Shown piece after piece: positions 39,109 through 48,828 of a DNA stretch of 64,000 nt (the stretch's first letter is position 1; the number at the start of each line of letters is the position of its first letter). The translations under genes were made by a program, and so were the position numbers. The stretch lies in NCBI GenBank assembly GCA_951813565.1, contig OX638351.1:1024001-1088000 (forward strand). The letters run 5' to 3'. Source of the stretch: an uncultured Poribacteria bacterium (GTDB taxonomy: Bacteria; Poribacteria; WGA-4E; WGA-3G). The notes beneath the pieces are model-generated. The model was not told the DNA's origin. It saw only the letters and a list, made by a program, of their open reading frames with translations, and did no database searches.

Positions 39109-41928
39109 TTATGACTCAGAACGTTCAAGACGGAGCACGCCGCGATGTTCTGTGCCAACGAAGAAGGCATCTCCATCAACAACGAGAGTATTAATCGTAT
39201 CCGGAATTTCAGGTACAATTTGTTCCCAAGTCCCTGTTTCCTTTTTGAACTGATAGATGCCGTCATCATTCGCTCCATAAACAGCATCCTCTGCTGTTGC
39301 TAACGACTTGATGATTACGGTTTCCCCCGTTTTATCAGTAATTGCATTCCAAACAACACCATCTATTGAATTGAAAACGCCTTTGTCGGTTGCGACGTGA
39401 ACCGTTGAGTCGGTAATGACAATCTGATTGTAGTGTTCAACCGACTGCGGCAAGTTTGATGTCCTGTCGTTCCAATTATCACCACCATCAAGCGATTGAA
39501 AGAGTTGTCCATCTCGCTTACCGACGTATACTGTTTCATCCGATGTAGCAAGTTTAAAACCTCGCGCCATATTTTCATGTGTGAGTTCGCAAGTTTCCTC
39601 TACACCTGTATCGGACCATCTTGTGTCACCAGGTTTCCATCGGAAGAGTTTATAGTTGTACTCCATGTAGTACGTTTCTCCACTCACCGCGAAGTTGCCG
39701 TATAATCCTTCCAACATCAATTCGTAAGCCAGCTGATGATCACCTTGTACTTGACCCAATAGTTTTAAAAAGCGTTCTGCACCAAATTTTGGATCATCCC
39801 GTATTATCTGAGTGGATAAAGACTCAGAATCGTCAGGATCTGTAGAGGAGGTAGAGGAAAAGGAAATCAGTACCGCTTGTCCCATGAGTCGATCAGAATC
39901 GAAGGGAAATGTTGCTTCACCAAAGACAGTCCACATAAGTCTTGCTGAATCTCGCGAAGGTGGTGCCGTTCCCTCAACAGGTCTTAAACAATATTCTCCC
40001 TCAACAGCAACTAAGCAGTTTTTTTCGGGAACGAAACGATAGTAAGCCGTTTCATTATTACGTCGAATTCCTTTAGCATACAGAACACCGTTGTCTTCGG
40101 AAATCTGCACAATTCTCGGTGTATATTCTGTATCTTTAAATTTTGTATTGAATTTTGGTATTTCAGTAGTAACCCTTGGCAAGTCAATCTCCACAGTAGA
40201 CCATGAACTCCCTGCGTTTGTTGATCTGACCACACTCCCAGCAACTGTCGCGTAGAGTGCATTTGGTATATTTGAATCTGGATCCGCATTCAAGCTAATT
40301 AGGTTTTCCACACGACACGCAAACCTTGTATTGAATCGGTGCCAAGTTTCACCGCCATCCGTTGTACGATGAATACCAGAAATTCCACCAGTATAAGAGG
40401 TGGTTTCGTTTAATGCTACAGCACAGTTTACGCTAAACTGCAATGGTGCGATACCAGACTGTTCTATAGTTTTCCAAGTGTTTCCACAATCAGTTGAGCG
40501 TGCTACAATTCCATCCTCGCCACCTACCAGTAAGAGTGTTTTCCCTGATGAAAGAAGTATTATCGGAGGTAAGGATCTCAATATTTTTTCCCGGGCATCC
40601 GTAGGCGTTATATCAGTCCAAGAATTTCCACCATCGGTTGATCTGAATACCCACCATGAATCCTTGCTGATATCACACAAATTATGGTAATTTTCTGTAG
40701 GTGTTCCGTCACCCTCCATTATATTTACCGATACTGCGGCATATATTTGGTCTTCGGTCACCTCCAGAGAATTTACAATCACAATATTGTCTACTGGTAA
40801 GGGCAGGTGTTCCCAAGTTTCAGAGTTATGACGGTATACTCCCAGAGATGTTCCAGCAAATAAGGTGTCTTGGCTGACTCGTAATGTCCTAATACCTGAA
40901 TTCTTTGTCACACGTTTGTCAAAACCCTCGTTCATGTCTATCCACGACTTTCCAGCGTCTTCGGAACGGAAAATACCATGATTTAGAGCGATGTAAAATG
41001 CATCTTCTGTGATCAACAATTCCCTCACATGCCCTTCTGGACAGGGCCCGACAGAATTCCAAGTTTCACCGCCATCAGTTGAGGCAAACATTTCATGAGA
41101 TGGGATAATATAAACCGTTCCATTGTGTTCAGCAATCGGAATACTACCCTTGGTCTTTTCAGGGAAAAAATCCGAGTTAACGGGTTGCCATTCATTTTCA
41201 TTCGCAGGTAATTTGTAGATGCTCTCATAACCCATCACCGCATAGAGTGTCCCATCCGATGTTTTAGCTAATGTGCCTACTGAAGCGGCAACACCGGGTT
41301 CATTCATCTGAATCCACTGCATAATATTCTCTGTAAGATTTTCTGGCAATTCAAAGCCACCTAATGTTTCGCGAACCATTAATTCCTCCTCCTTTAATCG
41401 TTTTCTTGCCCGATGAAGTCTGCTCTTAATCGTATTCACCGGAACATCCAAAAACTCGCTAATATCTTCACAACGCATTTCACCGAGATAGTGAAGCGTA
41501 ATCACAGTATATTCATTCTCAGGCAGTTTATTGAGAAGATGTTTCACTACCTCATGCCGTTTTTCATCTGCGGTAACTTCGCGTTGTTTATCAAGATATT
41601 GGGTATAGAAAATTTTTTCTAACTCTGCTTCAGGCATAGTATCAAGAGATAGAATCGGTAGCTGCGTTTTTCTATAAGAAGCTAAACAACAATTCTTCGC
41701 AATAGCATGTAACCATGCAGCAAAACGGTTCGGATCTCTAAGTGTCCAAAGCTTTTGATAAACCTGAAGAAAGGTGTCCTGCGTAATCTCTTCAGCGAGA
41801 TGGAAGTCACCTAACTTCCGCCATGCAAACGCATGCACCTGCTTCTGATATTTTTCTACCAAAACAGTAAACGCGTTTTGTTCACCACTGAGGGTCTCTT
41901 GAATTAATGTAACATCGTTATTTTGCAT
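39109..41928 (-). CDS. ECF sigma factor fused to a long BNR/Asp-box beta-propeller region
   Basis: Region 2 (AEEITQDTFL..Y..FAAWL) and region 4 (ISEFLDVPVNTIKSRLHRARKRL), then many S.DGG.TW repeats. Confidence 0.92.
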   Translation of the reverse strand: MQNNDVTLIQETLSGEQNAFTVLVEKYQKQVHAFAWRKLGDFHLAEEITQDTFLQVYQKLWTLRDPNRFAAWLHAIAKNCCLASYRKTQLPILSLDTMPEAELEKIFYTQYLDKQREVTADEKRHEVVKHLLNKLPENEYTVITLHYLGEMRCEDISEFLDVPVNTIKSRLHRARKRLKEEELMVRETLGGFELPENLTENIMQWIQMNEPGVAASVGTLAKTSDGTLYAVMGYESIYKLPANENEWQPVNSDFFPEKTKGSIPIAEHNGTVYIIPSHEMFASTDGGETWNSVGPCPEGHVRELLITEDAFYIALNHGIFRSEDAGKSWIDMNEGFDKRVTKNSGIRTLRVSQDTLFAGTSLGVYRHNSETWEHLPLPVDNIVIVNSLEVTEDQIYAAVSVNIMEGDGTPTENYHNLCDISKDSWWVFRSTDGGNSWTDITPTDAREKILRSLPPIILLSSGKTLLLVGGEDGIVARSTDCGNTWKTIEQSGIAPLQFSVNCAVALNETTSYTGGISGIHRTTDGGETWHRFNTRFACRVENLISLNADPDSNIPNALYATVAGSVVRSTNAGSSWSTVEIDLPRVTTEIPKFNTKFKDTEYTPRIVQISEDNGVLYAKGIRRNNETAYYRFVPEKNCLVAVEGEYCLRPVEGTAPPSRDSARLMWTVFGEATFPFDSDRLMGQAVLISFSSTSSTDPDDSESLSTQIIRDDPKFGAERFLKLLGQVQGDHQLAYELMLEGLYGNFAVSGETYYMEYNYKLFRWKPGDTRWSDTGVEETCELTHENMARGFKLATSDETVYVGKRDGQLFQSLDGGDNWNDRTSNLPQSVEHYNQIVITDSTVHVATDKGVFNSIDGVVWNAITDKTGETVIIKSLATAEDAVYGANDDGIYQFKKETGTWEQIVPEIPDTINTLVVDGDAFFVGTEHRGVLRLERSES

Positions 41929-43069: not shown

Positions 43070-44449
43070 CTAATCAACAAGACTCGGTCCATACCGACTA
43101 TTCATCAGAGAACGCAATTCTTCAACAAGCTTCTTTTCGGAGTCAGCGATATTGTGCAATTCGTCTGGATCCTCAACGAGATTATACAGTTCCACGAATC
43201 CATCACTGCTTTCTATTAACTTATGTGTTTGTGTCCGAATACAAGTGAAGTTTCCGAGTCTGCTAACCGTTTCTGAACGATGTGTTTCAGTTTCTCCACG
43301 CACCACTGGTCCGATTGATTGTCCGTCAATATTCTCTAAAACTGGTACTCCCACCAAATCGCAAATTGTAGGATTAATATCAATGAGTTCTACCAACTCA
43401 TTTGAGACACGATTGCCTTCTATTCCCGGTCCGACTACAATAAGCGGAACCCGCAGCGATGCCTCATAAGCCGTGCTTTTTGTGTAAAGTCCATGGTCAC
43501 CGAGCATTTCTCCGTGGTCGCTTGAATAGATAATATAGGTATTGTCAAGCATACCACGTTCTTCCAACGCACGCAACATATTCCCAATCTGATAGTCAAT
43601 CAGTTCAGTTGCCGCGCAATACTGTTGGCGCGTAACCTTAACTTCTTCGGGACTGATATTAACGGTACGTTTTTTTACCCAATCGGGTTTTCCTTCCATG
43701 TCATCCACAATAGCACTTGGCATATCTGCATTTCGGTATTTATCACCGTATTCAGTGGGCGGATCAAACGGGTCGTGTGGTCCAACGAAACTGACGAACA
43801 GGTGCCACGGAAAATCATTAGGGATATTTTCAATAAACTCGGTTGAACGTCTGCCGATATATGAATCCTCAAAATCCTCAGTCGGAAGCACGGAGTCATA
43901 CGACCCGTTTTTTATCCATCCACCAGAAGAACGCCGGTTGCGGTAATCTTGATGAAATTTCTCTAACAATCCTTTTTCTTGTAAATAGTGTGTATAGGGT
44001 CCAATAGGTGTTGCGGAGCCGCCAGCATGCATCTTTCCTTCGCATTCTTCAGGATGCGTAAATCCCCAGTTGTAAGTGCGCGGGCGATCACCGTAGCGAC
44101 CATTATATCCATCCGGTTTTGCAAGGTCAAGTTTGCCGACACATCCTACGCGATATCCATGGTCTCGGAGCTGCTGATAATATGTCGGGATAGAAGTTGG
44201 GTAAAAACTACCATTGCTTAGAGAACCTAAACGCGAGGGTTGTATTCCAGACGCTAAACCTATCCGGGATGGTGCACAAACCGGGGCATTTACTGTGCAG
44301 TTTGGGAAATTTACACCCATTTCTGCTAATCTGCGCATGTTTGGTGTGTTAAGTGCTTCAGGGGCATTCTCATGCGTTTCCAGATAGTCATATCTATGCT
44401 GATCTGACATGATAAAGAGAACGTTTGGTTTATCGGTTTTTCTGTTCAT
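43070..44449 (-). CDS. Sulfatase (choline-sulfatase-like)
   Basis: PNVLFIMSDQHR, CAPSR, PHDP and SDHGEMLGDHG. Confidence 0.93.
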   Translation of the reverse strand: MNRKTDKPNVLFIMSDQHRYDYLETHENAPEALNTPNMRRLAEMGVNFPNCTVNAPVCAPSRIGLASGIQPSRLGSLSNGSFYPTSIPTYYQQLRDHGYRVGCVGKLDLAKPDGYNGRYGDRPRTYNWGFTHPEECEGKMHAGGSATPIGPYTHYLQEKGLLEKFHQDYRNRRSSGGWIKNGSYDSVLPTEDFEDSYIGRRSTEFIENIPNDFPWHLFVSFVGPHDPFDPPTEYGDKYRNADMPSAIVDDMEGKPDWVKKRTVNISPEEVKVTRQQYCAATELIDYQIGNMLRALEERGMLDNTYIIYSSDHGEMLGDHGLYTKSTAYEASLRVPLIVVGPGIEGNRVSNELVELIDINPTICDLVGVPVLENIDGQSIGPVVRGETETHRSETVSRLGNFTCIRTQTHKLIESSDGFVELYNLVEDPDELHNIADSEKKLVEELRSLMNSRYGPSLVD

Positions 44450-44457
44450 ATTTCCTC

Positions 44458-46443
44458 TTAGTTTTCACGATCTTGTGGTGTTGAATTGTTGAGTTCTTGA
44501 AGCTGCTCCTCAATGAAGGCTTTGAGATCATCTTGTTTCTGCTGTTCGGCAAGTTCTAAAGCAGTTTTGAGATTATTTCTAGCTTCTTCAACGTTACCTA
44601 AATCCGCCATTATAGCAGCACGATGAGCATAGGCTTCTGTAAAATCAGGTTTTATGCGAATAGCCTCAGTATAATCCGCAAGAGCATCTTCATACTGCTT
44701 AAGTATAGTTTTCAACATTCCTCGACTATCGTATGCTTTTGCATAGTCCGGACTGAGACAGATTGTTTCATCAAAATCCGCAAGAGCATCTTCATACTGC
44801 TCAAGCATAACTTTCACCAATCCTCGGAAATTGTATGCTTCAGCATGATTTGAGTTGAGGCGGATTGCTTCATCAAAATCCGCAAGAGCATCTTCGTATT
44901 TTTCAAGCTGGGCATATACATATCCTCTATCATAATATGCGTCCGCATTATTTAGATCAAGATTAATTGCTTTATCATAGTCCGCAAGAGCATCAATATA
45001 TTTGCTAAGTTCTTTATTTGCTTTTCCTCGAAAAAAATGACCTTTTGCATTTTCAGGATCCAAACGAATCACCTGGTTAAAATTCGATAATGCATCAGTT
45101 GGTTGCCCAAGAACACCGTATGAATATCCACGCAGATTATAGGCTTTCACAAAAGCTGGATTTATCTGAATTGCCTCGTTGCAGTCGACTATAACAACAT
45201 CATGTTTATCTAGTGAATTATTTGCAAGAGCACGGTTGAAGTAAACATTAGCAGAGTTAAGTCCTAACTTGATTGCTCTATCAAAATCGGCAATAGCCGC
45301 TTGGTGTTTGCCAAGCCGATTTTTAGTAATTCCTCTTGTGTAATAGCCTTGAATAAAATTTGGGTTTAGCTCAATGGCTTTATCAAAATCAAGAATTGCA
45401 GACTCGTGCTTATTTAACAAAGTCTTTACAAGTCCTCTTAGATGATAAGTATGGACATAATCTGGATTCAATTCAACGGCTTTATCAAAATCAAGAATTG
45501 CAGATTGATATTTCTCTAATTGACATTTCGCCAATCCTTTACCGACATACGCTTCTGAATTATTCGATTTCAACTTAATTGCATGATCGAAGTCAGCAAT
45601 TGCAGATTGGTAATCATTAAGTTGAAGTTTCGCCATTCCTCTGCAGCAATAGGCTTTTGCATAACTCGGATTTAACTTAATCGCATGATCAAAATCGTTT
45701 TTAGCTGATTTAATTTGACTAGATTTGCCTTTTGCACAACCTCTGTTAACGTAAAGTTCGGCAAAATCAGGAGCAAAACTGATTGCTTTTCCCAAGTCAG
45801 AAATCGCTTCATCGTATTGGCAAAGTTCCTGCAGTAAGTCACCTCTATTGTTATAAGCTTCCCAAAAATCAGGTTTCAGAGTAATCGCTTTACCATAAGC
45901 AGAAAGAGCTTGCTCTGTCCTTTTCCCTTGATAGAGTAGAAAACCAATGCCAAAAAAGGCATAAGCAGCGAGTTTATCTTCAGTTCCAGTTTTGGTTATT
46001 CCTTCTTCTGCTAACTTTGTATTCTGTTCTGTCAGCTTTGGAACATAAGTATCCTCGTAATCGTTAATGAGGCGAATAATGAATTCCATCAATGGAGCCA
46101 AGAGGTGATTTTCATTCTCACCAACAGAATAGATTAATTCTTCAAGCACATTATCAAGCCACTCATACTCGTTTTCTGTCAAATTGATGACACCATAGTG
46201 TCCATGGCGGTTTCCGAAATCGGTTAATTCATCAAGTACTTCTACTAACCATTGATAGGCACTTTCAGGGTAGGTTGTGAGGACGGCAGGAACGGATCGG
46301 CGAATATGTACCTGAATCTGGGTCGGTTCAGAACTCTCGAACAATTGAGAGTTACTTGTTAGCCCATCAGGAAGTATGGTATCTGAACCCAAATCCGATA
46401 GCATTGAAGACGTATTAAATGTAGGTTGTGTTTCTATCAACAT
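44458..46443 (-). CDS. HigA-like module fused to a long TPR array
   Basis: Residues about 88-135 (TENEYEWLDNVLEELIYSVGENENHLLAPLMEFIIRLINDYEDTYVP) resemble the N-terminal half of HigA antitoxins. About 14 TPRs (AY.NRG...A..DF..AI.L.P) follow. No HTH seen. Confidence 0.85.
   Translation of the reverse strand: MLIETQPTFNTSSMLSDLGSDTILPDGLTSNSQLFESSEPTQIQVHIRRSVPAVLTTYPESAYQWLVEVLDELTDFGNRHGHYGVINLTENEYEWLDNVLEELIYSVGENENHLLAPLMEFIIRLINDYEDTYVPKLTEQNTKLAEEGITKTGTEDKLAAYAFFGIGFLLYQGKRTEQALSAYGKAITLKPDFWEAYNNRGDLLQELCQYDEAISDLGKAISFAPDFAELYVNRGCAKGKSSQIKSAKNDFDHAIKLNPSYAKAYCCRGMAKLQLNDYQSAIADFDHAIKLKSNNSEAYVGKGLAKCQLEKYQSAILDFDKAVELNPDYVHTYHLRGLVKTLLNKHESAILDFDKAIELNPNFIQGYYTRGITKNRLGKHQAAIADFDRAIKLGLNSANVYFNRALANNSLDKHDVVIVDCNEAIQINPAFVKAYNLRGYSYGVLGQPTDALSNFNQVIRLDPENAKGHFFRGKANKELSKYIDALADYDKAINLDLNNADAYYDRGYVYAQLEKYEDALADFDEAIRLNSNHAEAYNFRGLVKVMLEQYEDALADFDETICLSPDYAKAYDSRGMLKTILKQYEDALADYTEAIRIKPDFTEAYAHRAAIMADLGNVEEARNNLKTALELAEQQKQDDLKAFIEEQLQELNNSTPQDREN
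44674..44994 (-). repeat. 102-bp periodic DNA repeats within the TPR array
   Basis: (A/G)TCCGCAAGAGCATC at 44674, 44776, 44878 and 44980. Confidence 0.85.
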
Positions 46444-46598
46444 AGTTTACCTCTTCCAGCTGTCTCTATCATATTCTTCGTGCGTGAGTAAGTGCCTAAT
46501 AGAGACTTCCTGTTTTCTATAATTGATAAATGCGATAAGACGTACATTCCTACCGATGTTGAAAACTGTCAATGTTGTTCTTTCCCCTGGATGACTAA

Positions 46599-47751
46599 TA
46601 CCAAATTAACGTAAGTCATATTGTGTTTTCCATTTTGCAAATCCACTGAAAACCGACATGTTCTTGCACCTTCTTTCTGTTTTTGGAGAACCACTGACAC
46701 CTTTTCACAAGCACTTCTTCAAGGTCTGATAGCGTTCTAAAAACTTTATTGGCAACCACCTCTCGCAACAGAGGCCATAGCCGTTCGGCAGGTTGAAGTT
46801 CCGGTGTATACGGCGGTAAAAAAAATAACTCAATACCTTGTGGGACATCTAAATCCTTACCCGTGTGAAAACCGGCACGATCTAATAAGAGGATTATCTG
46901 TTTCTTGCCTTCCGGGTTTACATCCCGAGCAAACTCTGCCAACGCAAGGTTCATCACTTCAACACTCACACTCGGCATCAGAAGCCAATAAGTCTCACCC
47001 GTCTGTGGACGGACAAAACCGAAACCATAAAGCCATTTATATGACGGACACACCGAGGCTGTCGGTCTTTCACCTTGCTTCGCCCAGACACGCCGATGAA
47101 CCGGCAATAATCCCACGCGTGCCTCGTCTTCTGCCCAGACTTCTACCGATTTCTCCGGGTGCTGACCTTCAAGCTCAGCTACCCGCTCCCTAAGTTTTTT
47201 TTTAATGCTTGCTGCTCATCTGGTGTTGCAGCTGACTGATGTTGAGGACGAGGTGTTTGTAAAGTATAACCGAGACGCTTGAGATATTTCCAACCTGACA
47301 CATTACTGACAGGACGCTTGAGTGTCTCGGATATCCACGCAGCCACCTTCGGACCTGTCCACAGACCGCCATCAGCAGGAGGCGAAGAAAGTGCAGCTTC
47401 AAGGGCTGCTTGCTGTGTTTCATCCAAAATACGCTTGCGTCCATTGTTTTTGCGTTTGTCTCGCATAGCTGCTTCGCCTTCAGCGTTGTAGCGTTTGAGC
47501 AACTTCCGAACCCAGTCCGGCGTGCATCCTACAATCTCAGCAACTTCGCGAGGTGTTCGCGGATGTGTGGTATCAGCAAGAAGCCAAATAATATGCCAGT
47601 GCGTCCGTTCAATAGGACATTCACATTCAAGATACCTTTGTTTCAGAACTTCTACTGAAAAGTGAGGGGAAACCCCATGTTTTTTATTTTTCATCTGATC
47701 ACAATAACACATCCAAAAAATAAATGCAAGAACAATCATATTAATATGGTA
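46599..47751 (-). mobile_element. IS630-family insertion sequence (1153 bp)
   Basis: Ends TACCAAATTAA / TTAATATGGTA, flanked by a TAA duplication (46596-46598, 47752-47754). Confidence 0.93.
46616..47739 (-). CDS. IS630 transposase, two ORFs joined by an A9 slippery site
   Basis: HTH ORF (GLWTGPKV..LKRLGYTLQTPRP) and DDE ORF (AEDEAR, LDRAGFH, LPPYTPELQPAERLW). A9 run at LKKN (plus-strand T9 near 47195-47203). Confidence 0.9.
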
Positions 47752-47984
47752 TAAACTTTCCTGGACTTACTGGGACCGAATCTGCTTGAGGGAACGTTGC
47801 ACGTAGATCAACAATAGATTCGAAAGTGCCTTCCTCCATCAACCCATACCACCGCTGAAGTCTTTGTCTTGCAGTTGAATGTTTCTTTGTAAATTGATCA
47901 AGTTTTCTTTGTCCGGTGATACGCATTCGTAATCTGGAGTTGATCCTCTCTATGTGTATTTACTGCAGACCTCTATTTAAAACT

Positions 47985-48013
47985 ATTATACCATACAAAA
48001 ACCACATTGTCAA
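47985..48013 (-). promoter_or_regulatory. Consensus sigma70 promoter of the higB-TPR operon
   Basis: TTGACA-N17-TATAAT with extended TG (TGGTATAAT). Confidence 0.7.
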
Positions 48014-48828
48014 AAGTTGTCATAATGGGATCAGAGGCATTCAATTTTCGTCTAATTATCCGTTTTAGTTGAAAAGTTGGGACCTAAAAATCGTTCCCAG
48101 ATGCACGAATTGATTGTATTTTTCTTCTCATTTTATTGGAATCATCTCCTTAAAAAGTTACCATACGGTAACTTTTTTCATACCGTGGCAACTTTTTGAA
48201 ATTCGCTATAAGCTCAGTATCTGTAGGGGTTTATAGACATTTTATTTAGATTTTATATTTTTCATCTGCGTTGAGGAACACGGGTTTCCTTTTGCTGGAG
48301 ATATTTTATTTTGATAAGTTTTGCGTTGTCGTCTTTGCATTAGAGAGTTACTTTCGATTTTCGGTGTGTTTGGGGATCGGTTTTCTCTTTTCATACTGAT
48401 ATTATACCAAGCTCTGTGTAGTGATCAGAGGTTTTTGTGGCGTTAGGAACAATAGATATCCAATATATTGACAATAAGTTTGCAGGAAAAATTGGGTTGA
48501 TACGTTTTTTGCATCTTGGATGCGCGTGCATTTTGTTGTCAGCATGGTGGTTGACGCGATTTTTTGGAGTCTTGGGAAAGAAAGAAATCATTGGAGAATT
48601 GAATGGCTCTGATAATGGGATTGCGTAAGAATTCATTTAAAAGATGCGTACACTTTAGAAGACCTCTATACGAAATTTCAGTTGAATTGAAACTATCTCA
48701 AATTCCTTGTAAAGTTTAGACAAAAGTGTGATATAATATCTTTGATCAACATAATATTAAGTGTTTACGCAATGCAGTTTCTGAATAGCTATATGTGTAC
48801 AATTTGGCAATTCTTGGAAGGTAAAATA

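What the first reader, a model, noticed from the sequence alone, without database searches (positions are those of the whole stretch)
44458..47926. HigB toxin paired with a HigA-like module fused to a TPR array: candidate sensor-type toxin-antitoxin or defence system
Seen: a consensus sigma70 promoter (47985-48013) precedes a HigB-family gene. Its stop (46447) lies 3 nt before the ATG of a 661-aa ORF, whose SD sits inside the higB end. That ORF has an ~85-aa N-terminal extension, a segment resembling the N-terminal half of HigA (EYEWLDNVLEELIYSVGENENHLLAPLMEFIIRLINDYED), and about 14 TPRs where HigA normally has a DNA-binding HTH. The rebuilt HigB also has an extra loop of roughly a dozen residues (PVSPGKFSHPGERTT) before LTVFNIG. 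Known: HigB/RelE toxins are ribosome-dependent mRNases, and TPR arrays act as protein sensors in several antiphage systems. Inference: an antitoxin whose TPR array senses a phage or host protein and releases the RNase. I do not know of this architecture being described.
Basis: partly seen in the sequence, partly recalled or inferred. Interest (0 to 1): 0.85.

Follow-up and report, generated by a model that had tools for sequence, protein, structure and literature searches.

The report
Antitoxins fused to variable repeat arrays
Sponge-symbiont bacteria (Poribacteria) carry a toxin-antitoxin pair whose antitoxin has lost its DNA-binding part and gained a long, reshuffled protein-binding repeat array, which may let it act as a built-in sensor that frees the toxin, although no trigger has been shown.

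Summary
Observation confirmed and extended. The window (Ca. Poribacteria) holds an E. coli-type higB, split by a recent IS630 copy (the uninterrupted allele occurs in 3 of 3 non-RNA public runs laid), followed by an intact 661-aa gene: disordered arm, duplicated helix, HigA toxin-binding core, 14 TPRs, no HTH. Intact higB lies directly upstream in 20 of 30 related loci; several paralogue subfamilies exist in one Poribacteria family. A predicted complex scores 0.89 (best control 0.01); the lineage-specific HigB loop docks on the duplicated helix, leaving the TPRs free. The HTH was lost before the TPR arrived. Arrays hold 1-19 repeats, swap blocks, and are under purifying, not positive, selection. 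In six loci the same protein also ends in a DUF2281-like tail before an intact PIN toxin: one antitoxin, two toxins. Two further unrelated antitoxins are TPR-fused in the same genome; no HigB-TPR fusion was seen in 150 listed matches. Sensing is inferred, not shown; most insertion sites are housekeeping, and a passenger fusion is a live rival. Ten literature searches found no description. Verdict: new variant of type II TA, possibly a recurrent sensor-antitoxin class.

The parts
47985..48013 (-). sigma70-type promoter, 12/12 consensus, extended -10
   Evidence: similar element upstream of many family members, no perfect palindrome (arms of 6 or more) in 12 of 12 promoter regions tested
47752..47926 (-). 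higB, 5' part (codons 1-58), ends inside the family-specific loop
   Evidence: PF09907 E 6e-5; tblastn to two other higB genes of the genome
46596..47751 (-). IS630-family element with terminal inverted repeats and one copy of the 3-bp target duplication; two transposase frames (47179-47739, 46616-47116)
   Evidence: NF033545, DDE_3, HTH_33; 8 full copies at 99-100%; joint 46595 to 47752 without it in 3 public runs
46447..46595 (-). higB, 3' part with the invariant F-N-I, R, H and Y positions
   Evidence: PF09907 E 2e-13; alignment A4
46450..46456 (-). Shine-Dalgarno-like sequence of the antitoxin gene inside the last higB codons (translational coupling)
   Evidence: sequence; 3-nt gap kept in most relatives
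44458..46443 (-). 661-aa HigA-core-TPR antitoxin gene, intact
46279..46443 (-). N-terminal arm, residues 1-55, predicted disordered, fast-evolving
   Evidence: pLDDT under 50; pN/pS 0.51
46183..46278 (-). duplicated HigA helix, residues about 56-87; predicted to touch the HigB loop
   Evidence: pN/pS 0.16
46027..46197 (-). HigA toxin-binding core, residues 83-139, no HTH
   Evidence: pN/pS 0.14
44536..45963 (-). 14 TPR repeats, residues 161-636
44461..44535 (-). C-terminal capping segment; in 15 distinct relatives it continues into a DUF2281-like tail, absent here

Best explanation
A type II toxin-antitoxin operon of the E. coli HigBA (PF09907) kind in which control has moved from DNA to protein level. 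Shown by sequence: higB and the antitoxin gene are coupled; the antitoxin keeps only the HigA N-terminal core, has no HTH, carries a duplicated helix and a TPR array of variable make-up. Supported by prediction: HigB is held by the core and duplicated helix, its extra loop included, with the TPRs left free. Inferred: the operon is expressed from a strong, non-autoregulated promoter; the TPR groove binds a protein ligand (most plausibly a phage or other invader protein), which exposes the antitoxin to proteolysis or displaces it, freeing HigB (and, where a DUF2281 tail exists, the downstream PIN toxin) to stop translation, as in a toxin-antitoxin-chaperone system but with the sensor in the same chain. 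Repeat-block exchange would change specificity. In the window's strain the toxin gene has just been knocked out by IS630, so this copy is an orphan antitoxin. About 0.9 for the TA-pair part, about 0.45 for the whole statement.
For: HigA homology chain; the five best Foldseek hits of the isolated domain among 350,542 chains are all E. coli or Shigella HigA, though only at E 0.9-1.7. Complex of the intact L002 pair: score 0.89, best of 3 controls 0.01; the mark was reached by 116 of 157 solved complexes and 2 of 215 mismatched pairs; runs agree in 98% of contacts, partner pLDDT 90; HigB residues 53-60 touch antitoxin 58-66 and 100-109; of the TPR part only residue 169 is named. The core contact can pass by likeness to solved HigBA; the loop and duplicated helix are not in those structures. 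higB adjacency 20 of 30. Purifying selection on toxin (pN/pS 0.26), core (0.14) and TPRs (0.27). Arrays of 1-19 repeats with shared first and last repeats and swapped interior blocks; most variable positions are Pfam 9, 12, 13, recalled as groove positions. Antitoxin-side fusion recurs: DUF2281-like tail with intact overlapping PIN gene in 7 of 15 tail-bearing proteins; an unnamed PIN-partner module fused to TPRs in 22 of 24 best loci, PIN directly upstream in 12; TPR-UPF0175 with a full-length DUF3368 PIN gene downstream in 17 of 24 (query contained a TPR). None of 150 listed HigB matches (of 275) lies in a frame over 208 aa. HigB hits PADLOC PD-Lambda-2_A at E 1e-13. Array collapses to about 2 repeats in a lineage that deleted higB (L025, L027; matching joints).
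Against: No ligand or trigger is known. Groove positions show no excess of replacement changes within repeat types (pN/pS 0.30, against 0.37 for outer helix B; clustering at 65% identity biases both down). Neighbourhoods: 19 of 30 loci follow a type ISP restriction-modification gene or its fragment, but they are one syntenic site; the window's site (sulfatase, mobA, queF side) and most others are housekeeping. Loci are fixed chromosomal sites; no match in 50,697 phage records, 72,556 plasmids or IMG/VR. HTH loss, helix duplication and a long N-terminal arm all occur without TPRs, so they are not TPR adaptations. The loop-TPR link may be one event (HigB tree, support 85/73). Interior repeats are shared with a neighbouring non-antitoxin TPR gene, and TPR proteins are abundant in Poribacteria anyway (23 rows; PMC3909097). 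higB is broken or lost in 9 of 30 loci while the TPR gene mostly persists.
Confidence: 0.45

Rival explanations
1. Passenger fusion: an ordinary HTH-less HigBA pair became joined to a resident TPR gene with its own, toxin-independent job. The antitoxin core tolerates appended domains, and the toxin merely makes the TPR gene hard to lose (addiction that protects a deletion-prone repeat gene or a neighbouring restriction island).
For: HTH-less 75-aa and 105-150-aa antitoxins beside higB exist without TPRs; stand-alone TPR genes with the same repeat types sit beside these operons; TPRs make almost no predicted contact with HigB; the TPR gene survives higB loss in L001, L003, L029, L078, L079; Poribacteria fuse TPRs to many domains (protease-like, FRG).
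Against: Fusions fall on the antitoxin in both gene orders and for four unrelated antitoxins, while no HigB-TPR fusion was seen in 150 listed matches, although fusing to a toxin could simply be selected against; the HigB loop occurs in 24 of 24 TPR-partnered and 0 of 16 other HigBs.
Confidence: 0.3
2. The TPR array is a stability or scaffold module, not an invader sensor: it shields the labile antitoxin (a chaperone in cis), or ties antitoxin turnover to a host stress protein or protease adaptor, or holds two toxins on one scaffold for stress-induced dormancy.
For: Purifying selection with no positive signal; conserved first and last repeats; disordered acidic arm and linker that could lie in the groove (inference); E. 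coli HigBA is activated through Lon under stress (PMC2814082, abstract).
Against: A fixed partner does not need arrays of 1-19 repeats with exchanged blocks.
Confidence: 0.2
3. The pair is decaying: HigB is no longer toxic and the antitoxin core is a vestige.
For: higB broken or deleted in 9 of 30 loci; IS insertion in this strain; Salmonella SehA shows that HigB-like proteins need not be mRNases (PMC12817084).
Against: pN/pS 0.26 for higB, invariant F-N-I, R, H, Y columns in 52 sequences; the IS-free allele exists in public runs with no other differences on two listed contigs.
Confidence: 0.05

Closest known systems
E. coli / Shigella HigBA (YgjNM; PDB 5IFG, 5YCL, 6KML; toxin PF09907)
   Same: Toxin-first operon; HigB profile matches 5IFG_A at E 1e-17; antitoxin core homologous to the N-terminal dimerisation and toxin-binding part (domain roles from PMC7160566 passages).
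   Different: No C-terminal HTH, no promoter palindrome found; duplicated helix in place of the first helix; 7-18 extra residues in a HigB loop; 1-19 TPRs.
HigBAC toxin-antitoxin-chaperone system (10.1101/2024.02.24.581848)
   Same: HigBA unit whose antitoxin has a C-terminal addition linking it to a protein sensor; phage protein binding frees the toxin. Best functional model.
   Different: Sensor is a separate SecB-like chaperone reading a ChAD tail; here there is no third gene in the loci examined and the putative sensor is a fused TPR array.
PD-lambda-2 (PMC9519451)
   Same: Component A is the best PADLOC match of this HigB (E 1e-13); partner is a HigA-like protein with an added C-terminal domain; proven anti-phage.
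   Different: Partner keeps an Xre HTH and carries a peptidase, is itself the toxic part, and a third gene is needed.
ParA-TPR plus TA ternary systems (10.64898/2026.10.19.760177, section 24)
   Same: Predicted TPR sensor linked to type II TA pairs, HigB-HigA among them.
   Different: TPR is on a separate ParA NTPase and the antitoxin keeps its HTH; here no NTPase and direct fusion.
VapC/DUF2281 and PIN/UPF0175 (COG2886) pairs (PMC12654330, PMC4963859, PMC2701414)
   Same: The C-terminal tails of some relatives and of a second TPR family match these antitoxin families and precede PIN genes.
   Different: Known forms are small stand-alone antitoxins; the DUF2281 match is partial and under Pfam's cut-off (23.7 against 26.5 bits).

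Membership tests
Type II HigBA (E. coli type) | Toxin of PF09907 | tested here: met
   Both halves hit PF09907; intact relatives 67-76 bits against cut-off 27
Type II HigBA (E. coli type) | Toxin gene directly upstream of antitoxin gene | tested here: met
   20 of 30 loci intact and adjacent
Type II HigBA (E. coli type) | Antitoxin N-terminal domain homologous to HigA | tested here: met
   Two-step homology to 5IFG_B; weak Foldseek ranks 1-5; no direct profile hit to PDB
Type II HigBA (E. coli type) | C-terminal Xre HTH and autoregulation | tested here: not met
   No HTH family among Pfam hits; residues 161-636 are TPRs; no perfect palindrome in 12 of 12 promoter regions
Type II HigBA (E. coli type) | Direct toxin-antitoxin binding and neutralisation | tested here: inconclusive
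   Prediction supports binding (0.89 against 0.01); neutralisation not testable here
Type II HigBA (E. coli type) | Ribosome-dependent mRNA cleavage by HigB | not testable with these tools
   Conserved R, H, Y columns; activity known for E. coli HigB (PMC2814082 abstract) but not for SehA (PMC12817084)
TAC (HigBAC) | SecB-like chaperone gene and ChAD tail | tested here: not met
   No conserved third gene across the neighbourhood clusters; C-terminus is TPR plus cap. SecB itself was not searched by profile
PD-lambda-2 | Partner with HTH plus ImmA/IrrE peptidase and third component | tested here: not met
   Antitoxin hits no PD-Lambda-2 model
ParA-TPR ternary TA systems | ParA NTPase fused to the TPR sensor | tested here: not met
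   No NTPase domain in the Pfam or NCBIfam rows shown (best 25 of 28 and of 37); the whole length is accounted for by arm, core and TPRs
Anti-phage defence system (any) | Protection against phage | not testable with these tools
   Context only partly defence-like

The most novel reading that the evidence does not exclude
Poribacteria have evolved a general class of one-chain 'sensor-antitoxins': a TPR superhelix diversified by repeat-block exchange, onto either end of which at least four unrelated antitoxin modules (HigA core, DUF2281, UPF0175, an unnamed PIN partner) were grafted independently, so that one binding event can release one or two different RNase toxins encoded on either side. This would be an NTPase-free, recombination-diversified counterpart of NLR-type receptors built from ordinary TA pairs.
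Probability: 0.35. Interest if true: 0.88.

Novelty: new variant of a known kind. Interest (0 to 1): 0.7.

Why it matters
How type II antitoxins learn when to let go of their toxin is an open question; the few solved cases use a separate chaperone or the toxin-antitoxin fusion itself. Here a natural series (HTH-bearing, HTH-less, helix-duplicated, TPR-fused, double-headed) exists within one phylum, with dozens of natural array variants on one toxin-binding core. If the arrays are sensors, this is a ready library of swappable phage or protein detectors and gives a cytoplasmic, immune role to part of the TPR excess of sponge symbionts, usually read as host-interaction proteins. If not, it still documents double-headed antitoxins and an unannotated, widespread HTH-less HigA family.

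Tried and rejected
Direct profile searches of the N-terminal domain against PDB sequences gave nothing; Pfam, NCBIfam and PADLOC have no model for it. Foldseek with the 235-aa model returned only TPR proteins. VIA-align wide search of the 89-aa domain gave generic helical bundles, best Z 6.6, HigA not in the 50 rows shown. ESM Atlas: no usable hit for residues 50-145; the 75-aa form matches unnamed clusters. No match in phages, plasmids or viral contigs. The metagenome scan did not run, as the alignment lacked a conserved stretch. Positive selection on groove positions was looked for and not found. Operator palindromes not found. The one RNA run laid covered only the IS, so expression is not shown. 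Direct self-similarity of the two helices was significant in 3 of 6 proteins (0, 0 and 2 of 2000 shuffles) and not in the other 3 (81, 817, 399). The idea that the HigB loop co-occurs with the duplicated helix as such was rejected: 9 of 9 HigBs with helix-duplicated but TPR-less partners lack it. The idea that TPRs directly replaced the HTH was rejected. Earlier findings of this scan held nothing on this family.
Full report
Setting. The window lies in a single-contig 5.43-Mb genome. All 30 GTDB loci that encode a relative of the N-terminal domain are titled Candidatus Poribacteria, and public runs that hold the stretch include sponge metagenomes.

Observation. On the minus strand: a 12/12 sigma70 promoter with extended -10 (48013-47985), higB starting at 47926, a 1156-bp insertion, the rest of higB ending at 46447, three bases, and a 661-aa ORF (46443-44458). 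The insertion is an IS630 element with 8 full copies at 99-100% identity in the genome and a 3-bp duplication. Without it the frame is 107 aa and 81 of 107 identical to the intact HigB of L002. Of four runs laid, the three non-RNA runs (three samples of one study) each have a contig that joins 46595 to 47752, and two listed contigs do so with no other difference; the fourth, an RNA run, covered only the IS. The knockout is therefore recent and not fixed.

The antitoxin. Pfam finds only TPRs; 14 repeats span residues 161-636. A profile of 27 N-termini found 350 representatives at E up to 0.001, of which 150 were listed; the weaker ones are mostly 55-110-aa proteins with no Pfam family, some named HigA by JGI. 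A profile of 40 such short proteins hits residues 83-139 of the window protein (E 1e-22), a second, partial copy at 46-75, and three HTH-bearing HigAs that follow higB in Poribacteria (E 1e-15 to 1e-25); one of these matches E. coli HigA 5IFG_B at E 7e-12 over both halves. AlphaFold gives a disordered arm (pLDDT under 50 to residue 52), helices 60-80, 90-107 and 116-133, a linker, then TPRs. For the isolated domain Foldseek ranks E. coli and Shigella HigA chains 1-5, at E 0.9-1.7 only. In those species the N-terminal part carries dimerisation and toxin binding and the C-terminal part the HTH (PMC7160566, passages).

The toxin. A profile of 52 HigBs matches E. coli HigB 5IFG_A at E 1e-17 with a 10-residue insertion and L002 HigB matches PADLOC PD-Lambda-2_A at E 1e-13. 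The loop region is 20-31 residues in 24 of 24 HigBs with TPR-fused partners and 13-15 in 16 of 16 others; on the tree the 24 form one side of a branch (85/73, not firm), so this may be a single event.

Predicted complex. For the intact L002 pair (antitoxin 1-235 with HigB, each with its alignment): score 0.89 in three runs, best of three controls 0.01; the mark was reached by 116 of 157 solved complexes and 2 of 215 mismatched pairs; runs agree in at least 98% of contacts; partner pLDDT 90. The core contact resembles solved HigBA and may pass from memory. The informative part is that HigB loop residues 53-60 touch the duplicated helix (58-66) and residues 100-109, and that of the two TPRs included only residue 169 is named.

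Distribution. Among the 30 loci, higB directly upstream is intact in 20, interrupted or frameshifted or without start in 5 (L001, L003, L005, L020, L030), cut by a contig end in 1, reduced to a deletion remnant in 3 (L025, L027, L028) and absent in 1 (L029); some frameshifts may be assembly errors. In 151 genomes of the phylum the domain profile matches 94 of 99 genomes of the window's family and 19 of 26 of a sister family, none in the other 25; these counts include short and HTH-bearing forms. The 150 best of 405 matches all lie in the window's family, 140 of them in frames of 230 aa or more. Twenty further loci picked from the weaker rows show several paralogue subfamilies, most again higB plus core plus TPR, some with a C-terminal HSDR_N_2-like nuclease domain; one such paralogue is in the window's own genome (L032). 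In five sister-family genomes the 10 matches are 75-136-aa proteins without TPRs, two of them 75-aa HTH-less antitoxins directly after higB. Helix-duplicated, TPR-less forms of 104-151 aa also follow higB. The forms thus suggest HTH loss, then helix duplication, then TPR fusion; the order is inferred, the tree being unrooted.

The arrays. 697 repeats from 54 family proteins, 4 neighbouring TPR proteins and 9 other genome proteins fall into 309 clusters; first and last repeats are shared widely, interior blocks are deleted, duplicated and exchanged, and a block of the longest arrays is shared with an adjacent 944-aa TPR gene that has no antitoxin core. Over 330 pairs of like repeats pN/pS is 0.27; groove positions 0.30, outer helix 0.37, core 0.15; arm 0.51, duplicated helix 0.16, HigA core 0.14, HigB 0.26, HigB loop 0.50 (the groove numbering is recalled from the TPR literature). 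So the arrays are maintained and vary by block exchange, with no sign of point-wise diversifying selection. Where higB was deleted at the window's site the array is down to 2 repeats (L025, L027), and contigs in the laid runs show a like deletion and collapse; this is probably one lineage.

A recurring theme. Fifteen distinct relatives end in a DUF2281-like tail (Pfam E 7.5e-5, under cut-off); 7 are overlapped by an intact PIN gene and 2 by remnants; six of the 7 also have an intact higB upstream, giving toxin, double-headed antitoxin, toxin. DUF2281 neutralises VapC in a tested pair (PMC12654330, passages). The window's genome holds two other fusions: a PIN gene followed by a duplicated unnamed module plus TPRs (fused in 22 of the 24 best loci, PIN directly upstream in 12; many weaker matches are short and unfused), and TPRs plus UPF0175 followed by a DUF3368 PIN gene (17 of 24 full length, 2 fragments; the query held a TPR, so fusion was selected for). 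UPF0175/COG2886 is a predicted PIN antitoxin (PMC2701414, passages). By contrast none of the 150 listed HigB matches (of 275) lies in a frame over 208 aa; PIN-side fusions were not surveyed.

Context. 19 of 30 loci follow a type ISP/IIG restriction-modification gene or fragment, but at one syntenic site; L009 follows a DNA methyltransferase and L032 lies by a patatin gene; the window's site and most others are flanked by housekeeping genes (81 and 61 of 140 cluster representatives and controls were scanned). No match in phages, plasmids or viral contigs.

Literature. Ten full-text searches returned no description of a TPR-fused HigA or of these Poribacteria fusions; subscription journals are mostly not covered. 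Read: abstract and section 5 of 10.1101/2024.02.24.581848 (HigBAC); passages of PMC9519451 (PD-lambda-2); passages and section 24 of 10.64898/2026.10.19.760177 (ParA-TPR with TA pairs), whose supplementary figure S8A I could not see and which may show related layouts; passages of PMC11980606 (survey of RelE/ParE toxins, no mention of TPR), PMC12817084, PMC3909097, PMC4963859, 10.1101/2023.12.08.570793, PMC7159879; abstract of PMC2814082. No supplements were read.

Verdict. It works like a HigBA pair, most likely like a TAC system with the sensor in the same chain, but it is not a member of canonical HigBA (no HTH), TAC, PD-lambda-2 or the ParA ternary systems. TA-pair status about 0.9; TPR as a trigger-binding module about 0.45; passenger fusion 0.3; stabiliser or scaffold 0.2. 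New variant of a known kind, interest 0.7.

Noticed in passing
window 48032-48611: A 580-bp repeated element directly upstream of the promoter, with 8 further copies at 92-98% identity in the genome; no Pfam hit for the 81-aa ORF that overlaps it; probably a non-autonomous mobile element.
   Followed up: partly
L124:2230-3634 (G000:C1:5359729-5361133): PIN toxin gene, apparently 5'-truncated next to transposase remnants, followed by a duplicated unnamed antitoxin-like module fused to 6 TPRs, then a 205-aa unknown gene and a GmrSD_N (DUF262) gene. Module matches 84 of 99 genomes of the family.
   Followed up: partly
L128:2533-4711 (G000:C1:896332-898510): 11 TPRs fused to a C-terminal UPF0175 domain, overlapped by a DUF3368 PIN gene; in L165 the same protein also has an FRG domain.
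   Followed up: partly
L126:400-3925 and L127:2559-4121: FRG-domain genes directly before TPR genes, one pair separated by a transposase gene, the other by a stop; an FRG-TPR fusion is seen in L134.
   Followed up: no
L032:2919-7269 (G000:C1:4931918-4936268): Paralogous higB plus HigA-core-TPR-HSDR_N_2 gene, flanked by TPR genes with predicted membrane segments and a patatin gene that matches PADLOC phospholipase effector models at E 6e-80.
   Followed up: partly
L086:1141-1659 and proteins P0109, P0121, P0138, P0176: A widespread 75-aa HTH-less HigA family with no Pfam model (Lamprocystis, Thiodictyon, Anaerolineales; Atlas clusters unnamed), lying directly after higB in L086 and L087.
   Followed up: partly
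L012, L017, L022, L078, L079: Tandem pairs of these operons from different subfamilies at the restriction-modification site.
   Followed up: partly
L120-L122, L033:2128-2463: HigA-core proteins without higB whose C-termini carry one or two copies of a short acidic motif, possibly yet another antitoxin module.
   Followed up: no
window 39109-41928: 939-aa ECF sigma factor fused to BNR/sortilin-like propeller repeats.
   Followed up: no
window 44102-44130: An 11/12 sigma70-like site inside the sulfatase gene, same strand; may be chance.
   Followed up: no
window 47194-47203: Run of A at the junction of the two IS630 frames, with length variants in public contigs; fits programmed frameshifting (recalled for IS630).
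   Followed up: no
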